13,757 nucleotides of DNA from a virus, in IMG/VR virus record IMGVR_UViG_3300021966_000146, positions 1-13,757 of that record; one strand, 5' to 3'. Shown one piece after another: positions 1 through 13,757 of the stretch. Under the pieces are notes generated by a model. That model was not told where the DNA came from. It searched no databases and saw only the letters and a program-made list of their open reading frames with translations. The translations under genes were made by a program, and so were the position numbers. Numbering within the stretch: the stretch's first letter is position 1; each line of letters starts with the position of its first letter.

Positions 1-13
1 CTCACTATTCCGC

Positions 14-53
14 ATTAACGTATTCCCCTATTAACGCATTAACGCTTTAACGC
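14..53 (+). repeat. TTAACG iteron cluster inside the left ITR (mirrored at 13705..13744)
   Basis: TTAACG occurs at 15-20, 31-36, 39-44 and 47-52. The last three form a tandem 8-mer array: ATTAACGC (30-37), ATTAACGC (38-45) and TTTAACGC (46-53). GCATTAACG is also duplicated at 12-20 and 36-44. The repeats are directly visible; any role as a protein-binding site is inference. Confidence 0.6.
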
Positions 54-70
54 GCTAAAATAATAAAGCA

Positions 71-90
71 CACTTTAATACTTTAAAGTG
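71..90. repeat. Perfect 8-bp-stem/4-nt-loop palindrome inside the ITR (mirrored at 13668..13687)
   Basis: CACTTTAA (71-78), TACT loop (79-82), TTAAAGTG (83-90). It lies between the iterons and the ITR promoter. Function unknown. Confidence 0.5.
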
Positions 91-163
91 ATACAAGTGC
101 ATTGGAGTACAATAACGTAGAATTGTCTGAATATTACGACTTTTATAAATTTGAAAAAATCTA

Positions 164-191
164 TTGCTTTTTATAGTGGGTATGCTATAAT
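164..191 (+). promoter_or_regulatory. Sigma-A-type promoter with extended -10 in the left ITR, firing inward
   Basis: -35 TTGCTT (164-169), 16-bp spacer, TGc extended element (183-185), consensus -10 TATAAT (186-191). The predicted start near 198 gives a 5'UTR of about 25 nt before the ATG at 223. Confidence 0.7.
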
Positions 192-222
192 AGACTTATC
201 AAATGAAAGAGAGGTAATTGAT

Positions 223-444
223 ATGAGAATCGGAGAAAGAAGCTTATATGAAATTGAAGTAGACTATAATTGCGGATTGATTGAAAACGAGTATGCTGAT
301 ACTGCAATGAGCATAGAAGAAGTTAAAGAACTTTGCAAAAGTGACTATGTAGAGGGTTACTTAAATTTAAAGAGAGAACTTGTAATACTATTATCTAATA
401 ATAGATATTTTAAAGTATTAAATAGGAGGGCTTTAGGATGGTAG
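223..444 (+). CDS. Hypothetical left-end early protein, 73 aa
   Basis: ATG at 223 lies 8 nt after GAGAGG (209-214). The TTG at 151 used by the ORF track is upstream of the predicted transcription start and inside the promoter. The N-terminal two thirds are acidic. No family recognised. Confidence 0.7.
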   Translation: MRIGERSLYEIEVDYNCGLIENEYADTAMSIEEVKELCKSDYVEGYLNLKRELVILLSNNRYFKVLNRRALGW

Positions 445-498
445 ACGCAATAGCAATTACTTTATTATGCTTAGGATTTTATTTAGGAGGGTACGACA

Positions 499-753
499 GT
501 GCAAAAGAAAAATATGGAAAGAAACATTGATTTCGACAAGAACGGGTATTGTAAAGATAGGGACACGTATAAGAGTCCCTATTATGCTATTAAAGCCTTT
601 AATAACAACGAACACAATAAAGGATGCAATATGTACGATATCGACAAACGACCTATATTAAGAGAAACAGAACAAGGTGAGTATATTATATTAGGAGAAA
701 CTATTGAAATCGGATATGAAAAGGTGATTAAAAATGGAAACAGTGAGAATTGA
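499..753 (+). CDS. Hypothetical early protein, 84 aa
   Basis: GTG start 8 nt after AGGAGG (485-490). It overlaps the next gene by 20 nt, consistent with operon packing. No family recognised. Confidence 0.65.
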   Translation: MQKKNMERNIDFDKNGYCKDRDTYKSPYYAIKAFNNNEHNKGCNMYDIDKRPILRETEQGEYIILGETIEIGYEKVIKNGNSEN

Positions 754-1300
754 TTTAAGACGAAAAGACGTAGATATAGAAGAAGTAAGAAGTATCAGGA
801 GAAAGCTTGCAAAGAGAGCAAATCAGAGATTGCGTGTTTTAGAAAAAAACAAACTTACAAAGAATGCTTACAGAGTAGCCACATATTATACGCAACAGAC
901 AAGAGGAAAAGACAGATTTAGTGAAGCAAAAATGGTTAAGGCAGATATGCGATACTTAAAGCAAGAAATTCTTGAATTGGAAAGATTTTTAAATTCCGTA
1001 ACTTCTACCTTGACGGGATATAAGAAATTAGAACAACAGAGATTGAAAGTTTTTCGAGATTATGGACTTGAAGTTAAAGACACACAAGAGTTTTTTGACT
1101 TTTTAAATTCTGAAATATATAAACAACTTGCTAATAAAGCTATTTCATCCGACATTCTGCAAGAATTTTACGACACAGTAAAATCGAAAAAGGACGCAAA
1201 GAAAGAGGAAATACAGAAAGCCCTTGAAAAGTTCAGGGCAGGAAACATTGACACAATAGATGAACTATATGAGGAATTTGATTTAACATTTATGGAGTAG
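734..1300 (+). CDS. Candidate terminal protein (protein primer for the DNA polymerase), 188 aa
   Basis: AAGGTGA RBS (720-726) lies 7 nt before the ATG. The gene is immediately upstream of the protein-primed PolB gene and 3 nt from it, the conserved TP-pol arrangement of phi29 and Cp-1. The protein is highly charged and helical. From memory it shows loose resemblance to phi29 p3: a basic N-terminus (RIDLRRKD... vs RIRIKDND...), ADMRY vs ANMRY, and an acidic C-terminal tail (IDELYEEFDLTF). No search was run. Confidence 0.55.
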   Translation: METVRIDLRRKDVDIEEVRSIRRKLAKRANQRLRVLEKNKLTKNAYRVATYYTQQTRGKDRFSEAKMVKADMRYLKQEILELERFLNSVTSTLTGYKKLEQQRLKVFRDYGLEVKDTQEFFDFLNSEIYKQLANKAISSDILQEFYDTVKSKKDAKKEEIQKALEKFRAGNIDTIDELYEEFDLTFME

Positions 1301-1303
1301 ATT

Positions 1304-3337
1304 ATGGTAAAGTTTAATTTAACGGGAGAATTTAAAAATGAAGAAGCATTGTTTTACGAGGTGAAAGACCTTACCCCGTTAGATTATGCTATGAACTGTG
1401 ATATAGTATATAGTAAAGCAAGAAATAATAAGAAAGCATATTACAATTATCCGAACACATTTGATATTGAAAGTACGACAGTAGATTGTGAAGAACCTTA
1501 TGCTTTTATGTACATTTTTATGTTTTGGTACAACGGAAAGGCTATATGCGGTAGACGTTGGGAAGAATTCGTTGAATTTATGGATAATGTTGTTAAATAT
1601 AATGATGAAGATATAAAGGTAGTATTTTATGTTCACTATTTATCTTATGAATTTCAATTTATTAAAGATTTTTTGAATTGGCAAGAAGTATTTGCAGTAG
1701 ACGCACATAAGGTATTAAGATGCACTTATGAAAATATTGAATTTCGGTGTTCTTTTTATTTATCCAATATGAGTTTAGAAAAGTTTTGCGAAAGCGGAAA
1801 GAACGTGAAACACTTAAAACAAGCCGGACACTTTGACTATAAAGTGTTAAGAACTCCTATCACAGTCCTGACGGATGAAGAATTAACATATTGTTATTGT
1901 GACGTAGTAGGATTGCATGAAAGATTGTTAGAGTCTTTAGAAGATGATACAATGATTACAATACCTTACACAAGTACAGGATATGTAAGAAGAAATTGCC
2001 GTTTAGCAATGCGAAAAAACAAGGCGAATAGAGAACTGTTTTTAAAAACACGTTTAAATAAGGAAACTTACACCTTATTAAAAGAAGCTATGCGTGGAGG
2101 AAACACACACGGAAACGCTTTGCACGTAGAACAGATAGAGCATGATGTTAAATGTTTTGATATTGCTAGCTCATATCCAGCCGTAATGATGATGAAATAT
2201 TATCCTGTTACTTGCTTTACAAAGGTAAAACCTACTATGAAAAGCTTTGAAAAATACTTAAAAGAGTATTGTTGTTTATTTAGGGTACACTTTATCGGAT
2301 TAAAGATAAAGAAAGAAGTTCCAGTGCCGTATATATCCGAACATAAGTGTCTAAAGAAAATAAACCCTTTAATTTTTAACGGGCGCATAGTCGAAGCAGA
2401 AGCTGTTAGCATGACAGTTACGGAAATTGACTTTGACATTATCAATTCTGAATACACTTATGAAAAGTTTGCTATTTCCGATTTTTACATCGCGAAACGA
2501 GGAGAACTACCAAAAGAATTAAAAGATGAAATTATGACTTACTTTTATAATAAGACTACTTTAAAGAAAGTAGACCCTTATTTGTATGCGAAGAGTAAGA
2601 GTTTATTAAATGCAATTTTTGGCATGGCTTGCACAGACCCTGTACGTGAAATAATGTTATATTCTGAAACAGTAGGATGGGTAAGAGAAACAGAAGATAT
2701 AGATGAAGCACTTGATAAATATTATCGCTCTTATAATAGTTTTTTGCCTTACCAATGGGGAATTTGGGTTACCGCCCATGCAAGATTACAGTTAGAAAAG
2801 TCTTTAAGGCTGACGAAAAGTCATACTGTATATGTTGATACAGACAGTAATAAGTGCGTAGATATACCTGATAACATTTTAGACGGACTGAATGAAGAAA
2901 TAAAGAAAGAAGCAGAGGAACATAAAGCATACGTTGATTTTAACGGTGAACGCTATTATCTAGGAGTATTTGAACAAGAGGACACTTGTAAAGACTTTAT
3001 AACAATGGGTGCGAAGAAATATGCTTATACGGAAGAAGACGATACATTCCATATAACAATTTCAGGTGTATCTAAAAAATTAGGTGCACAGGAAATGATT
3101 GATAAAGCAAAAGAAGAAAACACTCTGCCAATTGAACAGTTTAAAAGGGGGTTTATATTTTATAATTGCGGTAGAACAGTACACCGCTACAACGAAGAAA
3201 GACCGCACTACATTACAGTAAACGGTTGTAAGATACTGAATGCAAGTAACATTGCAATTACTGATAGTACATACAAGTTAAGTACGACAAATGATTTTGA
3301 AAGTTTTATTGAAAATAACCTTGACATTATGATTTGA
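1304..3337 (+). CDS. Protein-primed family B DNA polymerase, 677 aa
   Basis: GGAG (1294-1297) lies 6 nt before the ATG. Exonuclease motifs: Exo I FDIES (D54 at 1463-1465), Exo II HYLSYEFQF, Exo III YCYCDVVG. Polymerase motifs: A DIASSYP (D286 at 2159-2161; phi29 DVNSLYP), B KSLLNAIFG (phi29 KLMLNSLYG), C YVDTDS (D512/D514 at 2837-2845), and a KxY-like GAKKYAY. It is about 100 aa longer than phi29 or Cp-1 polymerases; the extra length is mostly before Exo I and after motif C. Confidence 0.95.
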   Translation: MVKFNLTGEFKNEEALFYEVKDLTPLDYAMNCDIVYSKARNNKKAYYNYPNTFDIESTTVDCEEPYAFMYIFMFWYNGKAICGRRWEEFVEFMDNVVKYNDEDIKVVFYVHYLSYEFQFIKDFLNWQEVFAVDAHKVLRCTYENIEFRCSFYLSNMSLEKFCESGKNVKHLKQAGHFDYKVLRTPITVLTDEELTYCYCDVVGLHERLLESLEDDTMITIPYTSTGYVRRNCRLAMRKNKANRELFLKTRLNKETYTLLKEAMRGGNTHGNALHVEQIEHDVKCFDIASSYPAVMMMKYYPVTCFTKVKPTMKSFEKYLKEYCCLFRVHFIGLKIKKEVPVPYISEHKCLKKINPLIFNGRIVEAEAVSMTVTEIDFDIINSEYTYEKFAISDFYIAKRGELPKELKDEIMTYFYNKTTLKKVDPYLYAKSKSLLNAIFGMACTDPVREIMLYSETVGWVRETEDIDEALDKYYRSYNSFLPYQWGIWVTAHARLQLEKSLRLTKSHTVYVDTDSNKCVDIPDNILDGLNEEIKKEAEEHKAYVDFNGERYYLGVFEQEDTCKDFITMGAKKYAYTEEDDTFHITISGVSKKLGAQEMIDKAKEENTLPIEQFKRGFIFYNCGRTVHRYNEERPHYITVNGCKILNASNIAITDSTYKLSTTNDFESFIENNLDIMI

Positions 3338-3349
3338 TTGTGATATTAT
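3321..3349 (+). promoter_or_regulatory. Internal sigma-A promoter in front of the SSB-like gene
   Basis: Consensus -35 TTGACA (3321-3326), 17-bp spacer, TGa extended element (3341-3343), -10 TATTAT (3344-3349). It straddles the polymerase stop codon (3335-3337). Confidence 0.65.
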
Positions 3350-3419
3350 ATACTTGTAACAAAGAAACAGATTTATTAAGAAAGAACAACACTATATCTA
3401 ATTAAATGGAGGAAACAAC

Positions 3420-3767
3420 ATGAACAACAAAATTATGGTAAACGTAACAGCAAAGGACATCTTTAACGCACAGGCAGGAAAAGGATTTAAAGAAGCTGGT
3501 AGCGGAAAACTTGAAGGAATGCTTACCGGCTACGCAGTATACGACACAGAGTCAGCGAATAAAACAACTGGCGAAATTGAAACAAAAACAATCTCTTTAA
3601 TGATTGTTGACGGGGAAATCTATTCTGGTGAAAGTATTGTAATTGCTGACAGAGTAAGGCAGTTAGAACAGTTTACAACAGAAGAAGAAATTAAAGCAGG
3701 TATTCCTATTCAGTTCGGTGAATTGAAAGTAGGTAGAGGAACAGCAACAACCTTTATGCTGAAATAG
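3420..3767 (+). CDS. Candidate single-stranded DNA-binding protein (phi29 p5-like), 115 aa
   Basis: GGAGG (3408-3412) lies 7 nt before the ATG. The gene has its own strong promoter and is followed by a terminator hairpin, which suggests high expression. Its size and its position in the replication module fit an SSB. From memory of phi29 p5 there are shared stretches: IFNAQ, DGxxYSxxS, and a C-terminal G-x-G/S...F-x-L. This needs a profile search. Confidence 0.5.
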   Translation: MNNKIMVNVTAKDIFNAQAGKGFKEAGSGKLEGMLTGYAVYDTESANKTTGEIETKTISLMIVDGEIYSGESIVIADRVRQLEQFTTEEEIKAGIPIQFGELKVGRGTATTFMLK

Positions 3768-3779
3768 GAAAGGAGGAAC

Positions 3780-3804
3780 GGCGGTCAAATTGACCGCCTT
3801 TTCT
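3780..3804 (+). terminator. Rho-independent terminator-like hairpin after the SSB-like gene
   Basis: GGCGGTC (3780-3786), loop AAATT, GACCGCC (3792-3798), then TTTTCT. It sits between a GGAGG (3772-3776) and the ATG at 3808. Confidence 0.6.
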
Positions 3805-3807
3805 GTT

Positions 3808-4809
3808 ATGTATTTAAACTTAGAAACATTGGAAAATAAATTAGATGTGTTTAATATAATTCTGGGAAATCGTGGTGGAGGAAAGACATATACTTGTTTA
3901 AGAGATTGTATAAAGAATGGAAAGAAATTTATATATTTAAGAAGAACACAGAAAGAGATACAGCGTATTGCGAAGAAGAAAGTAGATGTGTCCTTATCTC
4001 CTTTTGAGCCACTCAATAAAGATTATCCCGACTGGAATTTGGAAGTTGAGCCACTTGATGATGATATATATGCGGTTACAAACGGACTTGAAGATGAAAA
4101 GAAAAGTGTAGGGCTTATGTGTCCTTTAAGTACCTTTGCAAGTATGCGCGGTTTTTCTGCGCCAGATGTGGAAGTAATTATATTTGATGAATTTAATCCT
4201 GAATTGCACGTAAGAGGGATTAAAAATGAAGATGATGCATTTTTTAATATGTACGAAACAGTAAATCGAAACAGGGAACTGCAAGGAGAAAAGCCCGTAC
4301 AAGTATTTCTATTAGGTAATACAAACAATATTGCAATTCCAATTCTAGAAACACTCGGTTTAATTGAAGTGATAGAGGGAATGCAGAGAAAAGGAAAGAA
4401 ATTTTATAATAACAGAAATCGAAATTTATTTTTAATGCTAATGGAAGATAGCGACTATATCGAAAAGAAATCAAAGACAGCTTTATACAAGCTTACAGCA
4501 GGTACAGAATTCTATGAAATGGCACTTGAAAACAAGTTTGCATATAATGACTTTAGCGATATAGAAGTTAAAAACCTGAATGAATACCGACTAGAATTTA
4601 CTTGTAACGACTTTGCAGTTTGGAAACATAAAAGCCGATTTGAATTCTATGTAACAAAGAATACAACAGGACGAGTAGACTATGAAAGCACAGAAGCCGA
4701 AGCAATGGCTTTACGAAATCGCATGAGATACTTATATAACGCTTACGTTGGAAGAAAAATAATTTATCAGAATTATAGGGTAAAAAAGTCCTTTACAAAT
4801 TATGTGTAA
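3808..4809 (+). CDS. DNA packaging (encapsidation) ATPase, phi29 gp16-like, 333 aa from ATG 3808
   Basis: Walker A GNRGGGKT (3865-3888) and Walker B VIIFDEF. Collinear similarity to remembered phi29 gp16: FNIILGNRGGGKTY...KFIYLRR vs FVIGARGIGKSY...QFIYVRR; YETVNRNRE vs MDTVFRNRE; GTEFYEMALENKF vs GTEYGEMSLDNQF. The start is ambiguous: the track start, TTG 3790, lies inside the terminator loop 13 nt after the GGAGG, while ATG 3808 has no adjacent SD. Confidence 0.93.
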   Translation: MYLNLETLENKLDVFNIILGNRGGGKTYTCLRDCIKNGKKFIYLRRTQKEIQRIAKKKVDVSLSPFEPLNKDYPDWNLEVEPLDDDIYAVTNGLEDEKKSVGLMCPLSTFASMRGFSAPDVEVIIFDEFNPELHVRGIKNEDDAFFNMYETVNRNRELQGEKPVQVFLLGNTNNIAIPILETLGLIEVIEGMQRKGKKFYNNRNRNLFLMLMEDSDYIEKKSKTALYKLTAGTEFYEMALENKFAYNDFSDIEVKNLNEYRLEFTCNDFAVWKHKSRFEFYVTKNTTGRVDYESTEAEAMALRNRMRYLYNAYVGRKIIYQNYRVKKSFTNYV

Positions 4810-4820
4810 TGTGTTATTAT
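4792..4820 (+). promoter_or_regulatory. Sigma-A promoter with extended -10 at the end of the ATPase gene (candidate late and/or small-RNA promoter)
   Basis: -35 TTTACA (4792-4797), 17-bp spacer, TGt (4812-4814), -10 TATTAT (4815-4820). Predicted start around 4827-4829. It has the same TGnTAT(A/T)AT design as the promoters at 186 and 3344. Confidence 0.6.
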
Positions 4821-4827
4821 AATAATC

Positions 4828-4895
4828 GAGGAAGGGAACAACTCAAGGCTCGGAAAGCCGTTCACGGGTGGGAGCACCTAAACCTTCCTCTTTTT
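4828..4895 (+). ncRNA. Candidate small structured RNA (three-way junction closed by 5'/3' pairing, ending in a U-run); alternatively a terminator or leader element
   Basis: GAGGAAGG (4828-4835) pairs with CCTTCCTC (4883-4890) and is followed by TTTTT (4891-4895). Two hairpins sit inside: GGCT/AGCC (4847-4850/4856-4859, loop CGGAA) and GGTG/CACC (4867-4870/4875-4878, loop GGAG). The predicted promoter start coincides with the 5' base of the outer stem. This is the largest non-coding gap in the genome. Folded by eye only. Confidence 0.3.
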
Positions 4896-4904
4896 CCTAA
4901 AGGG

Positions 4905-4917
4905 CATGAAATTCATG
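4905..4917. promoter_or_regulatory. Perfect 13-bp palindrome CATGAA-A-TTCATG upstream of the lysis/late genes (candidate operator or hairpin)
   Basis: Directly visible. It lies between the 4792-4820 promoter and the GGAGG (4931-4935) of the holin gene. It can be extended by G-U/G-C pairs to 4902-4920. Confidence 0.4.
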
Positions 4918-4942
4918 TTCTTTATGGAAAGGAGGAAACGAA

Positions 4943-5155
4943 ATGAATGAAATTGTGACAGTAGTCACGAATGCAATTAGCAATGTTGGTTTTCCTATCT
5001 GCTGTGTCGGTGCGCTAGGTTATCTTCTGTATCGTGAACAGGAATTACACAGAGAGGAAAGCAAAATGTTTACAAGTGCAATTAAAGATTTAACGGTTGC
5101 ACTTACACAGCTCTCGGAAAAGTTGGGAGGAAGTGAAGATGTTACGGATTATTGA
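4943..5155 (+). CDS. Holin candidate, BhlA/UviB-like, 70 aa
   Basis: GGAGG (4931-4935) lies 7 nt before the ATG. It has a single N-terminal hydrophobic segment (VVTNAISNVGFPICCVGALGYLLY) followed by a charged helical tail (REQELHREESK...), the BhlA/UviB layout. It is immediately upstream of the GH25 endolysin and overlaps it by 17 nt. Confidence 0.65.
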   Translation: MNEIVTVVTNAISNVGFPICCVGALGYLLYREQELHREESKMFTSAIKDLTVALTQLSEKLGGSEDVTDY

Positions 5156-5732
5156 TGTAAGTAATTGGCAAGAAGGACTTGTAGATTTGGCACATCTGGA
5201 AAAGTACAACGCTGACGGGGTAATGATGAAAGCAACAGAGGGAAGAACCTTTACTGATAAGTCCCTCGATAGCTTCTATGACCGATTACACGGAGCAAAA
5301 GACGGAAAACCTGATAGAAATAAAATCTATGGTTTCTATCATTACGCAAGACCTGAAAACAATTCTCCAGAACAAGAAGCACAGCATTTCCTTGACAAAG
5401 TAGGACACCACGCAGGCTATGCGATTTTTGCTTTGGATTGGGAAGGGAAAGCATTAAACTATCCCATTACATGGGCTATTCGTTGGCTTGACTATGTTTA
5501 TGAAAGAACAGGTGTTCGTCCCTTGATTTACACACAGGGAAGTTACACAAAGTATTTACAGAAAGTCTTAAATAGGGACTATGGACTCTGGGTAGCGCAT
5601 TATGGAGTAAAAAAACCGAACATTGGAGTTTATCCGTTTTACGCAATGTGGCAGTTCAGTGCAGAAGGCATTGACCATAATTATTTTAATGGTGATGAAA
5701 AAACATGGAAAAAGTATTGTGAGGTGAGATAG
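5139..5732 (+). CDS. Endolysin, glycoside hydrolase family 25 muramidase, 197 aa
   Basis: ATG 5139 lies 8 nt after GGGAGG (5125-5130); the track start at 5097 has no RBS. GH25 signature blocks are present: IIDVSNWQ, MMKATEG, GFYHYARP, ALDWE, LIYT, LWVAHY, MWQFS. No separate cell-wall-binding domain is evident. Confidence 0.9.
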   Translation: MLRIIDVSNWQEGLVDLAHLEKYNADGVMMKATEGRTFTDKSLDSFYDRLHGAKDGKPDRNKIYGFYHYARPENNSPEQEAQHFLDKVGHHAGYAIFALDWEGKALNYPITWAIRWLDYVYERTGVRPLIYTQGSYTKYLQKVLNRDYGLWVAHYGVKKPNIGVYPFYAMWQFSAEGIDHNYFNGDEKTWKKYCEVR

Positions 5733-6043
5733 TGTCTAAAATTTCAAAGGTTTTATCAAAACAGGGTACACGCTTAGATGTTGCGACTTTAACAAAAAGA
5801 GGTATAAAGCGTGTCTTACTTACACCTGCACATAACGTCGTTTTAGACGGTGTAACGTTAGAAGCTAACAAGCAATTTGACATCACTTTTCCAGAGTTAA
5901 ACGGTACGTTGCCAAGCTATATTCAGTTAACATCTAGCCTCAGCGAATGGTATTGTGGTTGTAGAATTATGGAACTAGCTGGAAAAGGTAACCCGAATTA
6001 CTTTGAGATTACAAAAGAAAATAACAACGGAGTGCCTACATAA
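5732..6043 (+). CDS. Hypothetical protein, 103 aa
   Basis: GTG start overlaps the endolysin stop (TAGTG), with GAGG at 5721-5724. Its stop overlaps the next start (TAATG at 6041-6045). No family recognised. Confidence 0.65.
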   Translation: MSKISKVLSKQGTRLDVATLTKRGIKRVLLTPAHNVVLDGVTLEANKQFDITFPELNGTLPSYIQLTSSLSEWYCGCRIMELAGKGNPNYFEITKENNNGVPT

Positions 6044-8590: not shown

Positions 8591-8605
8591 CAAAGATAGG
8601 AGGTA

Positions 8606-8625
8606 GAGGGGATTAACATCCCCTC
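8606..8625 (+). other. Perfect GC-rich hairpin between the SD and the start codon of the tail knob gene
   Basis: GAGGGGAT (8606-8613), loop TAAC, ATCCCCTC (8618-8625). There is no downstream T-run. GGAGG at 8599-8603 lies 2 nt upstream, and ATG 8635 lies 9 nt downstream. Confidence 0.6.
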
Positions 8626-8634
8626 GAAATCTAC

Positions 8635-9990
8635 ATGGAAGTAATTTTTTATAAATTCAGTAAAAGAAAAAATAGTACGAAACAGGCTTTTGGTGGAGTT
8701 TCTTACAAGCATGGGACTTTAAAGGAGTTCTGTAGTGTTACGAAGCCTGTAATTCTTGTAGACATGGGAAAAATCCCTGATTACAATTATGCTTATATTA
8801 CAGAATTTAAAAGATATTACTACATTACTAATGTAGTAGTGGAAAGCGGTACAATGTGCAGAGTTTACATGACTGTGGATGTATTGGCAAGCTACAAAGA
8901 TGATATCTTAAAAGCGGATGTGTTTGTACAGCGTTGGAGTCGGTCGAATGTGATAGACATTATGGACGGACAATGTGTAGCCAGAGCAAATCCAGAACAG
9001 CGAATAGAAACAGGTGTTTTGCCGATAGACAGTGACGGTCATTTTGTTTTGGGAGTAACAGGGAAGAACGGAGCAAATGCAGTAGCTTACTATGATTTAA
9101 ACAAGACACAATTAGAGTTGCTTATGAATTTTCTTTTCACAGAAGATAATTTTAAAGATGTCATTTCCGAAGAAGTTGTAAAAAGTTTCTTTAATCCTTT
9201 TGATTTTATTGTGAGCTGTATGTGGTTTCCTTTTCCGCACAGTCCAGCAAATAAACGTCGAATAGATTTCGGATGGTTTAGCAATGACGAAATTATGGGA
9301 GTGTTACTAGAAGGAAATAGTCTAACTTCTGGTGAGCTTTGGGTGACAATTCCTAGAATGTACCCCAAAGGAGATTTTAGGAATTCGGCTTTTATTTCCT
9401 ACAAAATCTATATTCCGTTTTTCGGGGAAATTCCAATAGACGCAAACATAATTTCAGAAGCAGATGTAATTTCTTATAAATTCGTGGTCGATATTGCAAC
9501 TGGAAAAGCACAATGCCAGTTGGGGTATGGAGATTTCAGCATAATGGAAAGCGGTAGTGGTACTGTCTTCATGCGACTTGAAGGGCAAATGGGTTGTCCG
9601 ATAGCCTTAGCTCAAACTAACACGGACATAATCGGCGGAGCAGTTTCCGCTATCGGAAGTGTTGCGGGATTTCTCAAAAATCCACAAGGAGCAGTGGAGG
9701 GAGTAGTTAGCGCAGTTGAAAACGCAATGCCTGTGCCTGAAATTAAAAGCGGTAACGGATGCCGAAGCACTTTAGACTTCGAAAGAAATGTGAAGCTCAC
9801 GGCTACTATGTACCGTGCTAACGTTTTAAATCCAGAAGATAGGGGCTATATACATTGTAAACGGCAAACTCTCGGTAGTCTCGGTGGCGGTTTTGCTATT
9901 TGCGATAATGCAAGCATTCCGTTATCTGCAACAGAAGAAGAAATAACAGAAGTTAATAATTATGTGAATGGAGGTATTTATATTGAGTAA
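8635..9990 (+). CDS. Tail knob (distal tail tube) protein, phi29 gp9-like, 451 aa
   Basis: Collinear resemblance to remembered phi29 gp9: YAYITEFKRYYYITNVVVESGTMCRVYMTVDVLASY vs SYIMFQN...[30 protein letters not shown]. It also has a Gly/Ala/Ser-rich hydrophobic segment, DIIGGAVSAIGSVAGFL...GAVEGVVSAV, that parallels the gp9 loop. It sits immediately before the portal gene, as in phi29. Confidence 0.8.
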   Translation: MEVIFYKFSKRKNSTKQAFGGVSYKHGTLKEFCSVTKPVILVDMGKIPDYNYAYITEFKRYYYITNVVVESGTMCRVYMTVDVLASYKDDILKADVFVQRWSRSNVIDIMDGQCVARANPEQRIETGVLPIDSDGHFVLGVTGKNGANAVAYYDLNKTQLELLMNFLFTEDNFKDVISEEVVKSFFNPFDFIVSCMWFPFPHSPANKRRIDFGWFSNDEIMGVLLEGNSLTSGELWVTIPRMYPKGDFRNSAFISYKIYIPFFGEIPIDANIISEADVISYKFVVDIATGKAQCQLGYGDFSIMESGSGTVFMRLEGQMGCPIALAQTNTDIIGGAVSAIGSVAGFLKNPQGAVEGVVSAVENAMPVPEIKSGNGCRSTLDFERNVKLTATMYRANVLNPEDRGYIHCKRQTLGSLGGGFAICDNASIPLSATEEEITEVNNYVNGGIYIE

Positions 9991-10873
9991 TTATCCTGTG
10001 GATTTTGACGGAATAGCACGTTACAACACTAAAGTAACCCCAAATACCATACATACTTGGGGGACTTACAATGTAGAATTTTATAAGAGATATTTGCTTA
10101 CTAAAGCAATGTCAGTCTTTGAGTGGACTATTCCGAAAGAGTGGAGCTTAGATTATTTTAAAAGTTGTATTTATGTAAATGGTGCAATTTGCGTAATAAA
10201 TACAAACAGATTTGGAGTAATACCTCAAGTTTTTACGCCAGCCGGCTATGACATTTACTACGAACCAAACACGGCATATATTGCTAGTCCGATTTTAGGG
10301 GATTATATGCTGGAAATCGGTAAACAATGTGAGGTGATAAAGTTAAAAAGAGATTGGTGCGGTATAATGGATATCGTAAACAACTATGCGGAACTACTTA
10401 CTGAATGCGATAAATCAATCGGAATAAATCTTTTAAATACAAAAGTTGCTTTTGCTTTTGGTGTGAACAGTAAAGCCGAAGCGGAAAAAATGAAGAAAAT
10501 CTATGACGAAATTATTTCAGGAAATCCAGCGGTGTTTTACAAAGACGGAGGAGAAAAGTGGGATTTCTTCATTCAGAATTTGAAACAAAATTATATCGTT
10601 CAGGATTTAATTATTGCTAAAAAGTCGATTATGGACGAGTTTAACACTTTAGTTGGTATTCCGAATGCAAATACCGAAAAGAGAGAAAGACTTGTCAAGG
10701 ATGAAGTTAATGCAAACAATGCGGACACGTTTTCGCTGGCTGAGGAATGGTTAGAAGAATTAAAAATCGGATGTGAAAAGGTTAATAGAATGTTTGGACT
10801 AAACTTGTCTGTTAAATTCAGGGAAGGAGTGAAGCAGAATGGCGAAAATAACACTGTGGGGAGTTCTGAATAA
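9983..10873 (+). CDS. Portal (upper collar/connector) protein, phi29 gp10-like, about 296 aa
   Basis: Strong similarity to remembered phi29 gp10: FEWTIPKEW vs [35 protein letters not shown] vs [44 protein letters not shown] vs ACEKINELYGLNVKVKFR. For the start, the in-frame TTG at 9983 lies 8 nt after GGAGG (9970-9974), while the ATG at 9968 (track start) has no RBS. Either is possible. Confidence 0.93.
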   Translation: [296 protein letters not shown]

Positions 10874-11408
10874 TTACCCTGAAATTATTAAAGGTGTGGA
10901 ACTGCCCAACAACGTAGACTACGAAACTTTATTAGAAGTTATAATCTTTAAAGCTGGGGAAAATGAAGTTATGTATCCTAATCCCGTTTTCATGGAAACA
11001 GCAGTTCGGGCATGGTTTAGAGCGAAAAAGTACGAGTTTGATAAACTTGCAGAAACTTTAGATTTAGAATACAATCCGATTGAAAATTACGACAGAAAAG
11101 AAGAATGGACGGATAGAACAGAAAGTACAAGTAATTCCAGTACGAAAGGAAATGGAACAAGTACGGAAAGTAAATATGCGTTCGACAGCACGAGCTTTAA
11201 CCCGTACACACGTACAGAAAGCACGAACAATGATACTGATACCGTGCAGGGGAACGGGGAAACGGTGCACAGTGGAAAAATTCACGGGAATATTGGAGTT
11301 ACAACATCACAGCAGATGATACAGTCGGAAAGAGAAGTTGCTAACTTTGATATATATGACTATATCGCAAGTAAATTTGAAGACGCTTTTACGCTTGCGG
11401 TTTATTAA
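10839..11408 (+). CDS. Lower collar / head-tail adaptor candidate, 189 aa
   Basis: AAGGAG (10824-10829) lies 9 nt before the ATG. It occupies the phi29 gp11 slot, directly after the portal and before the appendage gene. It contains an LEYNPIENYDR block and an S/T/N-rich middle region. The assignment is mainly positional. Confidence 0.55.
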   Translation: MAKITLWGVLNNYPEIIKGVELPNNVDYETLLEVIIFKAGENEVMYPNPVFMETAVRAWFRAKKYEFDKLAETLDLEYNPIENYDRKEEWTDRTESTSNSSTKGNGTSTESKYAFDSTSFNPYTRTESTNNDTDTVQGNGETVHSGKIHGNIGVTTSQQMIQSEREVANFDIYDYIASKFEDAFTLAVY

Positions 11409-11424
11409 GAAAGGAGAAATGATT

Positions 11425-12996
11425 ATGAGTTTTGAAGTGTTTCCTTACACCAATTTCCATGAAATGAATTTGGATTGGTTAATTGAAAAAATGAAAGAGT
11501 TAGTGAAGGAATGGATGGACGTAGGCAAGAAGTGGGAAGAGATTAGAGAACTAATTGAAAACTTCTTAGACCACGTAGCAGTAGACATTTCCGCAGAAGT
11601 CAAGAAACAGTTAAAAGTGATGCTGAATAACGGAGAGTTGGAAGCAATAATCACGAGTTCTTTAGGAATTGTAACAAGCGTAGATACTTGCGTAGAACTT
11701 AAAAAATCTACAAAATATAAGGCAGGGCAGGTTATTGTTACAAAAGGGTATCACAAAGTCGGTGACAATGGCGGTGCAACTTATTACTTGTCAGACACTG
11801 CTTTTGAGGACACAGGGGTTTTCGAAAAAACAGCAAACGGATTATTTGCAAATATGCTGTACAATGATGTAATTTCCGTTGAACAGTTAGGTGTCGTTAG
11901 CAATGCTACTGGCGATTACACTACAAAACCAGCTAATAATGCGGTAGCTTTTAATAATGCCCTGACGCTTTGCAAAAGCAATTCTACAAGAAAACACAAA
12001 TTTAAACTTGTAGGTTACGGAAATTATTATGTAGAAACAACTTTGGATTTCGGTGGAACGAATGAAGCGAAAGTTTCTGACAGTGATTTCAAAACCGACT
12101 TTTCTGGTTCAACGATTTTCACGGATAAAAGCTTAGACGCTCTTATTTCCATTAAAAATGCTCAAGAGATTATTTATAATTTTGGGTATATCAATGCAAA
12201 AACTTGTAATTACGGAATTAAAATTGCATCTTTGGAAAGGTATGATTGGTCGCAGTATGTAACATTACATTGCTTGGATGTGAGAGCATCTACAAATTCT
12301 CTGTATGTAACAAACAACGACAAGGGCGGCTGGGTAAATGAATTACACGTAAACGGCGGTTTATTCGCCGACGGAATTTTTGTAGACTGCCCGAACCCTG
12401 AGGACGAAGTGTTTGTGACTAATATGTTAAGTGGTTTTTACTTTAATGATGTATCATGTGAAGGTGCGGACGTTTGGTATAACTTTAAAAATGTAGTCGG
12501 TGTGCATATCACATCTGCAAGAACAACAGACATTACAAACAAGTGGATTACTACGCAGGGAAATACAAGAGAAGTTCTTCTGTTCGGTGATTTTAAAATT
12601 ACCCACTTGCAGTTATCACAGGGAACACAGAAATTAAGAATTTTCGGTGCATTGACTATTCCAGATAAATTCGTTATTAAAAACCCAACCTATATGTTAG
12701 GTGCGTGGTGTGTAGATTATTTTCCACAAGTTGTCGAACAGGGTTCTGGTAGTGGATTTTTCAGGGATAGTGACGTTTCTCCTACTTATATGCTTTTCAA
12801 AGGTGATTGTAGTAAAGTAAAACTACCGAAAGAGTATAGTGAATTCTTAGGAATAAACTCTTTTAAAGCGTATGTAGAAGAAGGAGCAACAGGAACTATA
12901 ATGGACGCATACGGAAAAACAGTAATGAACGTTGCCAATTATCAAGGAAAGTACATTTCAGTAGATTTCGTAGGTCGAGGATGGTGGATTAGTTAA
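11425..12996 (+). CDS. Tail appendage / receptor-binding protein (tailspike-like), 523 aa
   Basis: ATG 11425 lies 8 nt after AGGAG (11412-11416); the track start at 11338 overlaps the previous gene and has no RBS. The helical N-terminal anchor (FHEMNLDWLIEKMKEL) is a motif type seen in Gram-positive phage fibres. The G/N/V-rich body (GDNGGATYY..., repeated short beta-like segments) is compatible with a beta-helix. It is the last late gene, in the phi29 gp12 slot. Confidence 0.7.
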   Translation: MSFEVFPYTNFHEMNLDWLIEKMKELVKEWMDVGKKWEEIRELIENFLDHVAVDISAEVKKQLKVMLNNGELEAIITSSLGIVTSVDTCVELKKSTKYKAGQVIVTKGYHKVGDNGGATYYLSDTAFEDTGVFEKTANGLFANMLYNDVISVEQLGVVSNATGDYTTKPANNAVAFNNALTLCKSNSTRKHKFKLVGYGNYYVETTLDFGGTNEAKVSDSDFKTDFSGSTIFTDKSLDALISIKNAQEIIYNFGYINAKTCNYGIKIASLERYDWSQYVTLHCLDVRASTNSLYVTNNDKGGWVNELHVNGGLFADGIFVDCPNPEDEVFVTNMLSGFYFNDVSCEGADVWYNFKNVVGVHITSARTTDITNKWITTQGNTREVLLFGDFKITHLQLSQGTQKLRIFGALTIPDKFVIKNPTYMLGAWCVDYFPQVVEQGSGSGFFRDSDVSPTYMLFKGDCSKVKLPKEYSEFLGINSFKAYVEEGATGTIMDAYGKTVMNVANYQGKYISVDFVGRGWWIS

Positions 12997-12997
12997 T

Positions 12998-13022
12998 CAA
13001 AGAGGGCTATAAGCCCTCTTTT
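12998..13022. terminator. Bidirectional rho-independent terminator between the convergent late and right-early operons
   Basis: AAAGAGGGC (12998-13007... stem core AGAGGGC 13001-13007), loop TATAA, GCCCTCT (13013-13019), flanked by an A-run upstream and a T-run downstream. Both strands therefore read as hairpin plus U-tract. Confidence 0.8.
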
Positions 13023-13221
13023 AATTGTATTCTATTTTAAATATTCCTAAAGCCCTTAATTCTTCATTATCAAATTTCCAATGTATAAGCTTGTTATTTA
13101 GTGCTCTATACCCTCGTTCATTTATGTATGCAATACGTGTTTTTCTGTCGATTGTTACAAACACAGTAGCGTATTTCTTATTTATCGTGCTTTTCGCCGT
13201 TAGCACTGTTTGCAATCTCAT
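13021..13221 (-). CDS. Hypothetical right-end early protein, 66 aa
   Basis: ATG at 13221 lies 7 nt after GGAGGAG (13229-13235 on the minus strand). The TTG track start at 13263 lacks an RBS. It overlaps the upstream gene by 44 nt in another frame. Basic; no family recognised. Confidence 0.6.
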   Translation of the reverse strand: MRLQTVLTAKSTINKKYATVFVTIDRKTRIAYINERGYRALNNKLIHWKFDNEELRALGIFKIEYN

Positions 13222-13345
13222 TCTGTAACTCCTCCAATCTACGCAATAGATAATAGTTTTCAATATATAAATCGTTTATCTTGTTTGATGTGCATAAAGA
13301 ACAGATAAGTATGCCTATTACAGCACCTATTACAATGCCTAGCAT
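13178..13345 (-). CDS. Small membrane protein, 55 aa (N-terminal TM helix plus a short coiled-coil-like tail)
   Basis: ATG at 13345 lies 9 nt after GAGAGG (13355-13360) and directly follows the upstream stop (13347-13349). The alternative ATG at 13366 (track start) lacks an RBS. The TM segment is MLGIVIGAVIGILICSLC, followed by LYIENYYLLRRLEELQNEIANS. Confidence 0.6.
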   Translation of the reverse strand: MLGIVIGAVIGILICSLCTSNKINDLYIENYYLLRRLEELQNEIANSANGEKHDK

Positions 13346-13346
13346 C

Positions 13347-13535
13347 CTATTTAACCTCTCTTTCATAGCAAATGAATTGATGATTATTCCTATCGAACCA
13401 ACGAATACTGTCTACGCACCAAATAGGCACTCTCATAATAGCATCATCACCATTACAATAATATCTGTACTTTCTTGTGTCAACAATTCTTTCTTTTTTA
13501 ACTCTCTTTAAAAATTCAATATTAGGTTTTCTCAT
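13347..13535 (-). CDS. Hypothetical right-end early protein, 62 aa
   Basis: ATG at 13535 uses the ITR-encoded RBS (mirror of 209-214). The first two codons (ATG AGA) are shared with the left-end gene and the sequences then diverge. The protein is basic with scattered Cys/His (C27, C40, H53, C57). No family recognised. Confidence 0.7.
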   Translation of the reverse strand: MRKPNIEFLKRVKKERIVDTRKYRYYCNGDDAIMRVPIWCVDSIRWFDRNNHQFICYEREVK

Positions 13536-13538
13536 TTT

Positions 13539-13757
13539 AATTACCTCTCTTTCATTTGATAAGTCTATTATAGCATACCCACTATAAAAAGCAATAGATT
13601 TTTTCAAATTTATAAAAGTCGTAATATTCAGACAATTCTACGTTATTGTACTCCAATGCACTTGTATCACTTTAAAGTATTAAAGTGTGCTTTATTATTT
13701 TAGCGCGTTAAAGCGTTAATGCGTTAATAGGGGAATACGTTAATGCGGAATAGTGAG
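13539..13757. repeat. Right inverted terminal repeat, 219 bp
   Basis: Exact reverse complement of 1..219. The window ends exactly at its last base. Confidence 0.97.
13567..13594 (-). promoter_or_regulatory. Identical ITR promoter in the right ITR, firing inward (leftward)
   Basis: Mirror copy of 164..191 (coordinate p maps to 13758-p). It would drive the three minus-strand genes 13535..13021. Confidence 0.7.

What the first reader, a model, noticed from the sequence alone, without database searches (positions are those of the whole stretch)
1..13757. Complete genome of a very small protein-primed (phi29/Cp-1-like) podophage bounded by 219-bp ITRs
The window begins and ends exactly on a perfect 219-bp inverted repeat. 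Between the repeats are about 19 tightly packed genes that make a self-sufficient set. The replication genes are a terminal-protein candidate, protein-primed PolB and an SSB-like protein. Packaging is covered by a gp16-like ATPase, and lysis by a holin and a GH25 endolysin. The phi29-type virion genes are scaffold, MCP, tail knob, portal, lower collar, appendage and tail lysin. At 13.7 kb it is about 30% smaller than phi29 or Cp-1 (both about 19 kb, from memory). That places it near the lower size limit known for tailed phages. No integrase or repressor is visible, so it is probably strictly lytic. Similarity to phi29 proteins is patchy and motif-level, which suggests a distant and possibly undescribed lineage.
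Basis: partly seen in the sequence, partly recalled or inferred. Interest (0 to 1): 0.7.

Follow-up and report, generated by a model that had tools for sequence, protein, structure and literature searches.

The report
Small phi29-like phage with pRNA-like RNA
The window is an essentially complete 13.8-kb linear genome of a small gut phage of an already catalogued type, but it also carries a previously undescribed, strongly conserved 63-base RNA built like the "packaging RNA" that so far has been found only in phi29 and related Bacillus phages.

Summary
The window starts and ends on a perfect 219-bp inverted repeat (229 bp with two mismatches), and 19 genes cover 94% of it.

Curated models confirm six genes:
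- protein-primed PolB;
- gp16-type ATPase;
- GH25 endolysin;
- gp13-like tail lysin;
- phi29-type capsid protein;
- connector.

Remote-homology tests support the SSB and the lower collar. The terminal protein, tail knob, scaffold and appendage rest on gene order only.

The phage is not unusual. An ENA contig is 99.99% identical, IMG/VR contigs are 87-90% identical, and thousands of related 12-14-kb contigs exist. Cultured relatives are as small as 10.4-12.3 kb. The closest cultured ones are Amedibacillus phages AD70P2/P3 and Clostridium phage HM2 (about 40% PolB identity), not phi29 or Cp-1.

It has its own promoter and forms a three-way junction with a one-sided bulge complementary to a hairpin loop. 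A model built without this lineage finds it once per genome in 63 relatives. All 22 base pairs covary, and so does the bulge-loop pairing. Element for element it matches phi29 pRNA, yet Rfam does not detect it.

It always heads the late/lysis operon, so a cis-acting leader remains a serious alternative.

The parts
1..219 (+). Left inverted terminal repeat. The outer part carries four TTAACG motifs (15, 31, 39, 47). The inner part carries a promoter (-35 TTGCTT 164-169; extended -10 TGcTATAAT 183-191), the 5'UTR and the RBS (about 208-214) of the first gene.
13539..13757 (-). Right inverted terminal repeat. It carries the same promoter, 5'UTR and RBS, driving the leftward genes (-35 13594-13589; -10 13575-13567).
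223..444 (+). g01, 73 aa, early gene of unknown function. It is transcribed from the ITR promoter.
   Evidence: no family hit
499..753 (+). g02, 84 aa, unknown function.
734..1300 (+). g03, 188 aa, terminal-protein candidate assigned by position only. It ends 4 nt before PolB and is predicted all-alpha. Homologues sit in the same slot in AD70P2, HM2 and MT836155. Invariant residues include Y46, S91, T92, S126 and S139.
   Evidence: no match to known TPs
1304..3337 (+). g04, 677 aa, protein-primed family-B DNA polymerase. Motifs present: Exo I DIE; Exo II HYLSYE; Exo III YCYCD; motif A DIASSYP; motif B KSLLNAIFG; motif C YVDTDS; KKY.
3321..3349 (+). Promoter-like site (TTGACA-17-TGnTATTAT, 11 of 12 matches) ahead of the SSB gene.
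3420..3767 (+). g05, 115 aa, phi29 p5-type single-stranded-DNA-binding protein (remote homologue).
3780..3798 (+). Terminator-like hairpin followed by a T-tract after the SSB gene. It overlaps the TTG start codon of the ATPase gene.
3790..4809 (+). g06, gp16-type DNA-packaging ATPase. The start is either TTG 3790, which has an AAGGAGG RBS, or ATG 3808, which public gene calls use.
4792..4820 (+). Promoter-like site (TTTACA-17-TGnTATTAT, 10 of 12 matches). It places the transcription start at about 4827, the first base of the RNA.
4828..4890 (+). Conserved pRNA-like RNA, a three-way junction:
- A helix 4828-4835 / 4883-4890
- C helix 4836-4839 / 4860-4863
- one-sided bulge AACUCAA 4840-4846
- E helix 4847-4850 / 4856-4859
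- E loop CGGAA 4851-4855
- D hairpin 4866-4879 with loop GGGAGC
- bulge CUC is complementary to D-loop GAG

The ORF at 4809-4946 (45 aa) that overlaps it is probably not a gene.
4886..4936 (+). Lineage-specific 24-bp hairpin. Its 3' arm holds the holin Shine-Dalgarno sequence (GGAGG 4931-4935). Its 5' base overlaps the 3' arm of the RNA's A helix.
4943..5155 (+). g08, 70 aa, single-TM holin candidate. This family follows the RNA in about 52 of 63 relatives, and true Phage_holin_4_1 genes replace it in others.
5139..5732 (+). g09, 197 aa, GH25 endolysin.
5732..6043 (+). g10, 103 aa, unknown function.
6043..7119 (+). g11, 358 aa, tail lysin (Phage_lysozyme2 plus NlpC/P60). It is 38% identical to phi29 gp13 and is absent from the L006/L033 lineage.
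7092..7412 (+). g12, 106 aa, scaffold candidate assigned by position only. It contains three 30-nt tandem repeats (7169-7262).
7412..8590 (+). g13, 392 aa, phi29-type major capsid protein.
8635..9990 (+). g14, 451 aa, tail-knob (gp9-like) candidate. Support is synteny plus a short shared motif only.
9968..10873 (+). g15, 301 aa, portal / upper collar connector (gp10 family).
10839..11408 (+). g16, 189 aa, lower collar (remote gp11 homologue).
11422..12996 (+). g17, 524 aa, tail fibre / appendage candidate. It gives a weak PHROG tail-fibre hit and no link to gp12.
12999..13021 (.). Bidirectional terminator hairpin between the convergent late and right-end early genes.
13021..13535 (-). Three small leftward genes of unknown function (13347-13535, 13178-13366, 13021-13263), transcribed from the right ITR promoter.

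Best explanation
The window is the essentially complete linear dsDNA genome of a virulent, phi29/Cp-1-type podophage. It belongs to the very large clade of 12-14-kb phages seen in human faecal and other metagenomes. The host is probably a low-G+C Bacillota bacterium.

Shown:
- 219-bp ITRs whose ends are real molecular ends.
- A protein-primed-type PolB, a p5-type SSB, a gp16-type ATPase, a phi29-type capsid protein, connector, lower collar and tail lysin, and a GH25 endolysin.

Inferred replication: a terminal protein, most likely g03, primes DNA synthesis at both ITR ends.

Inferred transcription:
- The duplicated ITR promoters drive the two inward-facing early units.
- The SSB gene has its own promoter and terminator.
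- A promoter at 4792-4820 starts the late unit.

The RNA: the first 63 nt of the late transcript (4828-4890) form a conserved three-way-junction RNA with the element order of phi29 pRNA domain I. I think it most likely (about 0.55) acts as a miniature packaging RNA. In that reading the bulge and D loop pair between molecules to form a ring on the prohead. The invariant CGGAA loop would contact portal or capsid, and the A helix would hold the gp16-type ATPase. The RNA's existence and structure are shown. Its function is inferred.
For: Phage identity:
- ITR and real ends.
- Curated family hits.
- PolB motifs.
- SSB; lower collar and MCP profiles.
- Nine core genes are shared in the same order with the cultured Amedibacillus phage AD70P2.
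- The layout and ITR length resemble Cp-1.
- No integrase or repressor domain was found.

RNA is real:
- Model R1, built from 20 relatives and excluding this lineage, hits the window once (4827-4891, 32.7 bits, E 1e-7; next best E 0.07).
- It finds one hit per locus, always on the ATPase strand, in 63 of 85 sources.
- 94.1% of cells are paired against 55.4% in shuffles. All 22 pairs show compensatory changes. The covariation score is 0.954 against 0.203 shuffled and at most 0.164 for slid registers.
- The bulge-D-loop pairing cannot have been imposed by the model. Its covariation score is 0.427 against 0.092. Matched partners share 4.28 contiguous Watson-Crick pairs against 2.19 for mismatched partners, and 0 of 5,000 permutations reach that.
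- A sigma-70 promoter ends 5-12 nt upstream in 74% of instances against 1.6% of control positions.

RNA resembles pRNA:
- Rfam's structure line for phi29 pRNA has the same order of elements: A helix, C helix, one-sided 5' bulge, 4-bp E helix, E loop, D hairpin, with the bulge complementary to the D loop (PMC5066667).
- The RNA occurs in phages whose packaging ATPase is of the gp16 type.
- A larger variant of about 105 nt has a long A helix and lies 100-230 nt from the holin gene. A conserved hairpin follows it, with a U-tract in L109/L111.
Against: - The terminal protein is not demonstrated. g03 matches no known TP by sequence or fold.
- The true terminal nucleotides are uncertain.
- Rfam's pRNA model (RF00044) scores nothing in the window or in 12 relatives. 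The family model finds nothing in phi29, Cp-1, AD70P2, HM2 or astrithr. Homology to pRNA is therefore not shown.
- The RNA is always co-oriented with, and 17-60 nt (median 33) upstream of, a holin-type gene, even where it is not beside the ATPase gene. That is what a cis-acting leader would look like.
- No consistent terminator follows the RNA.
- The bulge-loop pairing could be an intramolecular pseudoknot.
- Astrithr-like phages have the ATPase and holin genes abutting with no RNA between them.
- The host is unresolved.
Confidence: 0.55

Rival explanations
1. Same phage, but the conserved RNA is a cis-acting structured leader of the late/lysis operon and not a packaging RNA. It would be a pseudoknotted three-way junction at the 5' end of the late mRNA. 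It could make RNA polymerase resistant to termination (as the put RNAs of HK022 do), stabilise the transcript, or time holin translation.
For: - The RNA starts at the predicted transcription start of the late promoter.
- It is always followed by a co-oriented gene, 17-60 nt away in most loci.
- In about 52 of 63 loci that gene belongs to the g08 holin-candidate family. In others it is a true Phage_holin_4_1 holin or the scaffold gene.
- The RNA-holin pair stays together when it lies away from the ATPase gene (L016, L009, L059, L108).
- No consistent terminator follows the RNA.
- In the window, a 24-bp hairpin couples the 3' arm of the A helix to the holin Shine-Dalgarno sequence.
- There is no CM-level similarity to phi29 pRNA.
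Against: - The distance to the start codon varies from 17 to more than 200 nt, and the Shine-Dalgarno sequence is not part of the conserved structure. A translational switch is therefore unlikely as the general mechanism.
- The element-for-element match to pRNA would be a coincidence. That match includes the one-sided 5' bulge that covaries with the D loop.
- The larger variant is separated from the holin gene by a further conserved hairpin, which is followed by a U-tract in L109/L111.
Confidence: 0.33
2. The molecule is not a strictly lytic virus. It is a linear phage-plasmid or a carrier-state element that persists in its host, as some phi29-like elements do (EF62phi and the C. beijerinckii plasmid listed in PMC11476376).
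For: - Six small ORFs have no assigned function, so a small regulator cannot be excluded.
- phi29-related phage-plasmids are on record.
Against: - No integrase, partition, repressor or plasmid-replication domain was found.
- The genome is half the size of the known phage-plasmids (about 29-30 kb).
- No relative was found inside a bacterial genome contig.
Confidence: 0.05
3. The ITRs or the ends are assembly artefacts, and the real genome is circular, circularly permuted or longer.
For: - The two arms are exactly identical, which assemblers can produce by construction.
- The ends differ by 1-8 nt between contigs.
Against: - Diverged relatives have their own ITRs of 223 and 238 bp.
- An independent contig breaks exactly at both ITR boundaries.
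- A third contig runs into a sequencing adapter at window position 5.
- Contig lengths across thousands of relatives top out at 12-14 kb.
- Cp-1 has a 236-bp ITR.
Confidence: 0.03

Closest known systems
Amedibacillus phages AD70P2/AD70P3 (12.2-12.3 kb, filed under Guelinviridae) and uncultured human-faecal 'Bacteriophage sp.' contigs MT835998, MT836155, MT836263
   Same: - Nine core genes are shared in the same order: TP candidate, PolB, ATPase, holin candidate, MCP, g14, portal and g16.
- Genome size is similar and the hosts or sources are low-G+C.
- AD70P2 has a promoter plus a by-eye similar RNA downstream of its ATPase gene.
   Different: - Protein identity is only 26-40% and there is no nucleotide similarity.
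- AD70P2 lacks detectable homologues of the SSB, the GH25 endolysin and the gp13-like lysin.
- Its RNA is not detected by the family models.
Streptococcus phage Cp-1 (19.3 kb; Salasmaviridae, Cepunavirus)
   Same: - A long ITR (236 bp against 219 bp).
- The same strand layout: TP then PolB, with the late genes rightward and small leftward genes at the right end.
- A GH25-type endolysin.
   Different: - Cp-1 is about 40% larger (19,343 bp against 13,757 bp).
- Only PolB, ATPase, portal and endolysin are detectably related, at 21-25% identity.
- The Cp-1 TP shows no similarity to g03.
Bacillus phage phi29 (19.3 kb; Salasmaviridae)
   Same: - Protein-primed PolB, p5-type SSB, gp16 ATPase, gp8-type MCP, gp10 connector, gp11 collar and gp13 tail lysin.
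- The late-gene order 7-8-9-10-11-12.
   Different: - The phi29 ITR is 6 bp.
- Its early genes are leftward at the left end.
- phi29 has gp4, gp6, gp8.5, gp16.7 and gp17, which are not found in the window.
- Identities are at most 28%, except gp13 at 38%.
phi29 prohead/packaging RNA (pRNA; Rfam RF00044)
   Same: - The same order of elements: A helix, C helix, one-sided 5' bulge, 4-bp E helix, E loop, D hairpin.
- The bulge is complementary to the D loop, and that pairing covaries.
- The RNA has its own promoter with the transcription start at the A helix.
- It is encoded by phages with a gp16-type ATPase (PMC5066667).
   Different: - 63-75 nt instead of about 117-174 nt. The A helix is 8-15 bp against about 26 bp, and the C helix is 4-6 bp against 9 bp.
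- The E loop (CGGAA) is nearly invariant.
- It lies at the head of the late/lysis operon and not at the genome's left end.
- It has no defined 3' end.
- RF00044 does not detect it, and the family models do not detect phi29 pRNA.
Astrithrvirus group (Salmonella phage astrithr, Pectobacterium DU_PP_III, Acinetobacter Phanie, Vibrio K58 g2; 10.4-11.9 kb)
   Same: - PolB (32%), ATPase, MCP and portal are related.
- A candidate TP gene lies upstream of PolB.
- A g08-like small membrane protein follows the ATPase gene.
   Different: - The hosts are Gram-negative.
- The genomes are smaller still.
- The gene order differs, with the portal before the MCP.
- No RNA lies between the ATPase and holin-like genes.

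Membership tests
phi29-like protein-primed podophages (broad group reviewed in PMC11476376) | Linear dsDNA genome with inverted terminal repeats | tested here: met
   A perfect 219-bp ITR is present. Three independent lines show that the ends are real.
phi29-like protein-primed podophages (broad group reviewed in PMC11476376) | Protein-primed family-B DNA polymerase | tested here: met
   PF03175 scores 41.9 bits against a cut-off of 25.8, and phrog_1907 gives E 4e-46. The Exo I-III, A, B, C and KxY motifs align with phi29 and Cp-1. The TPR1 and TPR2 insertions were not examined individually.
phi29-like protein-primed podophages (broad group reviewed in PMC11476376) | Terminal protein gene next to the polymerase gene | tested here: inconclusive
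   g03 occupies the slot, is conserved there in AD70P2, HM2 and MT836155, and is predicted all-alpha. It shows no sequence or fold similarity to the phi29 or Cp-1 TPs. Its fold relatives are uncharacterised.
phi29-like protein-primed podophages (broad group reviewed in PMC11476376) | Protein covalently linked to the 5' ends of the DNA | not testable with these tools
   This needs a protease-dependence assay on terminal fragments, or mass spectrometry.
phi29-like protein-primed podophages (broad group reviewed in PMC11476376) | gp16-type packaging ATPase, phi29-type MCP and gp10 connector | tested here: met
   PF05894 scores 77.4 bits, PF25622 65.7 bits and PF05352 88.7 bits. All are above their cut-offs.
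Salasmaviridae (phi29, Cp-1) | Close proteomic relationship to family members | tested here: not met
   Only 3-4 proteins are detectable by BLAST, at 21-28% identity, apart from gp13 at 38%. The nearest relatives are elsewhere. A formal ICTV proteomic tree was not run.
Guelinviridae (family under which AD70P2 is filed) | Shared core proteome with classified members | tested here: inconclusive
   About 9 of 19 proteins have AD70P2 homologues at 26-40% identity, in the same order. The review itself splits the Amedibacillus phages from the Clostridium Guelinviridae by MCP cluster. No family-level tree was run.
Phage_pRNA (Rfam RF00044) | Match to the family covariance model at its gathering score (100 bits) | tested here: not met
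   No hit in the window at E<=1, and none in 12 relatives at E<=0.1. The phi29 positive control scores 145 bits.
Phage_pRNA (Rfam RF00044) | Three-way junction with the element order A helix, C helix, 5' bulge, E hairpin, D hairpin | tested here: met
   The order of elements is the same as in Rfam's structure line for phi29. All 22 pairs covary.
Phage_pRNA (Rfam RF00044) | Watson-Crick complementarity between the CE bulge and the D loop | tested here: met
   Matched partners share 4.28 contiguous pairs against 2.19 for mismatched partners, with 0 of 5,000 permutations reaching that. Column covariation is 0.427 against 0.092. Whether the pairing is between molecules cannot be told from sequence.
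Phage_pRNA (Rfam RF00044) | Discrete small transcript | tested here: inconclusive
   A promoter sits at the 5' end in 74% of instances. There is no consistent 3' terminator, and a gene always follows.
Phage_pRNA (Rfam RF00044) | Binds proheads as a ring and is required for DNA packaging | not testable with these tools
   This needs prohead purification, cryo-EM or in-vitro packaging.

The most novel reading that the evidence does not exclude
The 63-nt RNA at 4828-4890, together with its 63 or more relatives, is a miniature prohead/packaging RNA. It would be the first found outside phi29 and the related Bacillus phages. That would mean RNA-scaffolded packaging motors are widespread, and perhaps ancestral, among phi29-like phages, including hundreds of human-gut phages. 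It would also show that about 63 nt is enough for the job.
Probability: 0.5. Interest if true: 0.8.

Novelty: new variant of a known kind. Interest (0 to 1): 0.62.

Why it matters
The phage itself is ordinary. It is one more member of an abundant, already catalogued clade of 12-14-kb gut podophages.

The RNA is not ordinary. Two reviews (PMC5066667, PMC11476376) describe pRNA as unique to phi29 and related Bacillus phages. How the many other phages with gp16-type ATPases dock their motor has been an open question.

A family of RNAs with the pRNA blueprint at half the size would make that question directly testable. The family covaries richly, has an invariant loop and sits beside the ATPase and holin genes.

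If the pRNA reading holds, it would provide dozens of natural kissing-loop pairs and a minimal scaffold for RNA nanotechnology. It would also inform ideas on the origin of pRNA.

If it is instead a cis-acting leader, it is still a new and very well supported structured RNA class that controls late genes in a major group of gut phages.

Tried and rejected
- Megablast of the whole window against 50,697 GenBank phages gave no match, so no classified close relative exists there.
- Terminal protein: profile against PDB sequences, hhalign against the phi29 and Cp-1 TPs, and Foldseek against PDB all gave nothing. BFVD gave only uncharacterised proteins.
- g14 against gp9 and the Cp-1 tail proteins, g17 against gp12, g12 against gp7 and Cp-1 orf8, g08 against the phi29 and Cp-1 holins, and g01, g02 and g10 against phi29 gp4 and gp6 were all insignificant.
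- My recollection that g08 is a BhlA/UviB-type holin was not supported by Pfam, so I dropped it.
- Host assignment failed:
  - Endolysin relatives in bacterial genomes are at most 38% identical and taxonomically scattered.
  - No MCP relative was found in 185,579 species genomes.
  - The only NCBI-sourced relative is a metagenome record.
- I first read the ATPase-holin spacer as a single long hairpin that sequesters the Shine-Dalgarno sequence. Comparison with relatives showed that the conserved element is the upstream three-way junction, and that the hairpin is lineage-specific.
- The family models did not reach phi29, Cp-1, AD70P2, HM2, astrithr or MT836155.
- I read hairpins after the larger RNA variant as terminators, but the strict scan did not call them. 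Folding shows stable hairpins, and only two loci have a U-tract. I therefore do not claim a free-standing gene.
- The other non-coding stretches showed no exceptional structure: the outer ITR, 440-505 and 3335-3425.

Full report
**1. Observation**

The window's first 219 bases are the exact reverse complement of its last 219. The first mismatches are at 220 and 222, and the repeat runs to 229 nt at 99%. Nineteen credible ORFs cover 94% of a 36.1% G+C sequence. Sixteen are rightward and three small ones are leftward at the right end, where the GC skew reverses.

Three independent lines show that the repeats and ends are real:
- Diverged relatives have their own ITRs. L005 has 223 bp at about 88% genome identity, and L006 has 238 bp at about 70%.
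- An independent ENA contig (L010) equals window 220-13538 at 99.992% and breaks exactly at both ITR boundaries.
- A third public contig (L013) runs from phage sequence into an Illumina Nextera adapter at window position 5.

L005 and L001 extend 8 nt and 1 nt further than the window. The window probably lacks a few terminal bases, so no statement can be made about the terminal reiteration used for sliding-back.

**2. Genes**

Curated models confirm six genes:
- protein-primed PolB (PF03175);
- gp16-type ATPase (PF05894);
- GH25 endolysin;
- a tail lysin (Phage_lysozyme2 plus NlpC/P60), 38% identical to phi29 gp13;
- phi29-type MCP (PF25622);
- gp10 connector (PF05352).

The polymerase carries the Exo I-III, A, B, C and KxY motifs.

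Remote-homology tests support three further assignments:
- g05 is a remote phi29 p5-type SSB. All 12 family members hit PF17427 (best E 2e-7; the window's own copy 0.014). hhalign to phi29 gp5 gives 87% (E 4e-6). The AlphaFold model (pLDDT 89.6) matches annotated podophage SSBs at TM 0.76.
- g16 is a remote gp11 lower collar (hhalign 86.9%).
- g08 is a holin by position. In lineages that lack it, genuine Phage_holin_4_1 genes fill the same slot.

Four assignments are not verified:
- The terminal-protein candidate g03 ends 4 nt before PolB. It is conserved in that slot in AD70P2, HM2 and MT836155 and is confidently all-alpha (pLDDT 81). It matches no known TP by sequence or fold. Its only fold relatives are uncharacterised proteins of 'Podoviridae sp.' and 'Tectiviridae sp.'.
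- g14 (tail knob) has synteny and one short motif shared with gp9.
- g12 (scaffold) has nothing detectable.
- g17 (appendage) has nothing detectable apart from a weak PHROG tail-fibre hit.

No integrase or repressor domain was found.

**3. Inferred expression map**

- Each ITR carries an extended -10 promoter, 5'UTR, RBS and start codon for the inward-facing terminal gene. This inner part is conserved even in L006.
- The SSB gene has its own strong promoter (3321-3349) and a terminator (3780-3798) that overlaps the ATPase start codon.
- A promoter at 4792-4820 starts the late unit.
- A bidirectional terminator at 12999-13021 ends both convergent units.

**4. Placement and novelty of the phage**

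There is no nucleotide match among 50,697 GenBank phages, but the phage is not rare or new in kind.
- Its exact MCP and TP-candidate proteins occur on at least 10 public contigs.
- IMG/VR holds contigs at 87-90% identity.
- More than 4,000 PolB relatives exist, on contigs that top out at 12-14 kb.
- A 2024 review already catalogues more than 2,000 phi29-like entries, including many 12-14-kb human-gut genomes.

The closest cultured relatives are Amedibacillus phages AD70P2/P3 (12.2-12.3 kb) and Clostridium phage HM2, at about 40% PolB identity. Astrithr-like phages and Vibrio phage K58 g2 are 10.4-11.9 kb. At 13.7 kb the genome is small but not near a record. Similarity to phi29 and Cp-1 is limited to a few proteins at 21-28%. 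The layout and ITR length are Cp-1-like. The host remains unresolved.

**5.

phi29-type motors need a pRNA, and Rfam finds none here. Public gene calls leave 4810-4942 empty. Comparison with relatives showed a promoter right after the ATPase stop codon, followed by a three-way junction.

In the window the elements are:
- A helix GAGGAAGG/CCUUCCUC;
- C helix GAAC/GUUC;
- one-sided bulge AACUCAA;
- E helix GGCU/AGCC with loop CGGAA;
- D hairpin with loop GGGAGC.

I built a covariance model from 20 relatives, excluding this lineage. Its results:
- It finds a single hit in the window: 4827-4891, 32.7 bits, E about 1e-7, with the next best at E 0.07.
- It finds one hit per locus, always on the ATPase strand, in 63 of 85 sources.
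- 94.1% of cells are paired against 55.4% in shuffles.
- All 22 pairs show compensatory changes.
- The covariation score is 0.954, against 0.203 shuffled and at most 0.164 for slid registers.

The bulge-D-loop complementarity is not part of the model. It covaries too, at 0.427 against 0.092. Matched partners share 4.28 contiguous Watson-Crick pairs against 2.19 for mismatched partners, and 0 of 5,000 permutations reach that.

A sigma-70 promoter ends 5-12 nt upstream in 74% of instances against 1.6% of controls, which places the transcription start at the A helix.

**6. What the RNA is like**

Rfam's structure line for phi29 pRNA has the same element order: A helix, C helix, one-sided 5' bulge, 4-bp E helix, E loop, D hairpin. 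In phi29 the bulge (..AACC) pairs with the D loop (GGUU..) (PMC5066667). The new family is about half the size and has an almost invariant E loop.

Membership in RF00044 fails. The Rfam model sees nothing here or in 12 relatives. The family models see nothing in phi29, Cp-1, AD70P2, HM2 or astrithr. The claim is therefore 'works like', not 'is a member of'.

**7. The rival reading**

The RNA is always followed by a co-oriented gene, with a median gap of 33 nt. In about 52 of 63 loci that gene is the g08 holin-candidate family, and this holds even where the pair lies far from the ATPase gene (L016, L009, L059, L108). No consistent terminator follows the RNA. A cis-acting pseudoknotted leader of the late/lysis operon therefore remains a serious alternative.

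Three points argue against that reading as the general mechanism:
- The spacing to the start codon is variable, and the Shine-Dalgarno sequence is not part of the conserved structure.
- A larger variant of about 105 nt has a long A helix and lies 100-230 nt from the holin gene. A conserved hairpin follows it, with a U-tract in two loci.
- The exact match to the pRNA blueprint would have to be a coincidence.

I put the pRNA-like function at about 0.5-0.55 and the leader at about 0.33.

**8. Verdict**

The phage is a new member of a known kind. The RNA is a new, very well supported structured RNA family that is best described as a new variant of the pRNA kind. No paper in the searchable library and no Rfam family describes it.

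Noticed in passing
window 15-52 (mirrored at 13706-13743): Four TTAACG motifs lie at 15, 31, 39 and 47, the last three with an 8-bp period, in the outermost part of the ITR. They are conserved in L005, L001 and L013, and similar TTAAYG motifs occur in L006. They are candidate origin or DNA-binding-protein sites.
   Followed up: partly
window 164-222 and 13536-13594: The inner part of each ITR is a complete expression cassette (promoter, 5'UTR, RBS and start codon). Two unrelated terminal genes therefore share identical control regions. The cassette is more conserved than the rest of the genome in the about 70%-identical L006.
   Followed up: partly
window 4886-4936: A 24-bp hairpin (z = -3.9) holds the holin Shine-Dalgarno sequence in its 3' arm. 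Its base overlaps the 3' arm of the RNA's A helix by 5 nt. Folding of the RNA and access to the holin ribosome site may therefore be coupled. The hairpin is absent from the L006/L033 lineage. The only Rfam near-hits here were microRNA hairpin models, which are noise.
   Followed up: partly
window 3780-3798: The terminator-like hairpin after the SSB gene contains the TTG start codon of the ATPase gene, and no promoter lies between the two. The ATPase may be made only from read-through transcripts.
   Followed up: no
window 6043-7119: The tail lysin is 38% identical to phi29 gp13, far above any other protein's similarity to phi29. It is absent from the L006/L033 lineage and sits outside the tail-gene block. 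This suggests a horizontally exchanged module.
   Followed up: partly
window 1304-3337 (PolB): The Exo II motif reads HYLSYE, where AD70P2, HM2 and astrithr have HNLSYE and phi29 has HNLKFD. Motif B reads LNAIFG, where relatives have Y in place of F. Both positions affect exonuclease or dNTP handling in phi29, according to my recollection of the mutant literature.
   Followed up: no
window 7169-7262: Three 30-nt tandem repeats encode a Q/P/T-rich decapeptide in the scaffold candidate. The homologue in L013 is 13 aa longer (119 aa against 106 aa), which suggests variation in repeat number.
   Followed up: no
L013 1-70 (ENA ERZ28017986 k141_4704): A public metagenome contig carries a complete Illumina Nextera i7 adapter and mosaic end fused to the phage terminus. 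This is contamination in the deposited assembly.
   Followed up: yes
L097, L104, L109, L111, L112, L114 (about 30-170 nt after the ATPase stop codon): This is a larger variant of the RNA, about 105 nt. It has a long interrupted A helix, E loop UCGGGAG/UUGGGAG, an extra hairpin and covarying kissing pairs (GGGUAA/UUACCC, GUACA/UGUAC, UGUGC/GCACA). A conserved 12-bp hairpin with loop UGUCA[C/A] follows it. The size and A helix are closer to phi29 pRNA.
   Followed up: partly
L016 (MT835998) 1051-1119; L009 5532-5597: In these genomes the RNA-holin pair is not adjacent to the ATPase gene. In L016 it lies near the left end of the genome, on the strand opposite to the ATPase gene.
   Followed up: partly
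L020 (Salmonella phage astrithr) 4161-4352: A g08-like small membrane protein (..DTMGFPIF..) starts 2 nt after the ATPase gene, with no RNA or promoter between them. The Gram-negative-infecting branch therefore lacks the element at this position.
   Followed up: partly
window 8606-8625: A stable G+C-rich hairpin (z = -3.0) lies just after the capsid gene and has no T-tract. It may be a partial terminator or a stabiliser that sets capsid-protein stoichiometry.
   Followed up: no
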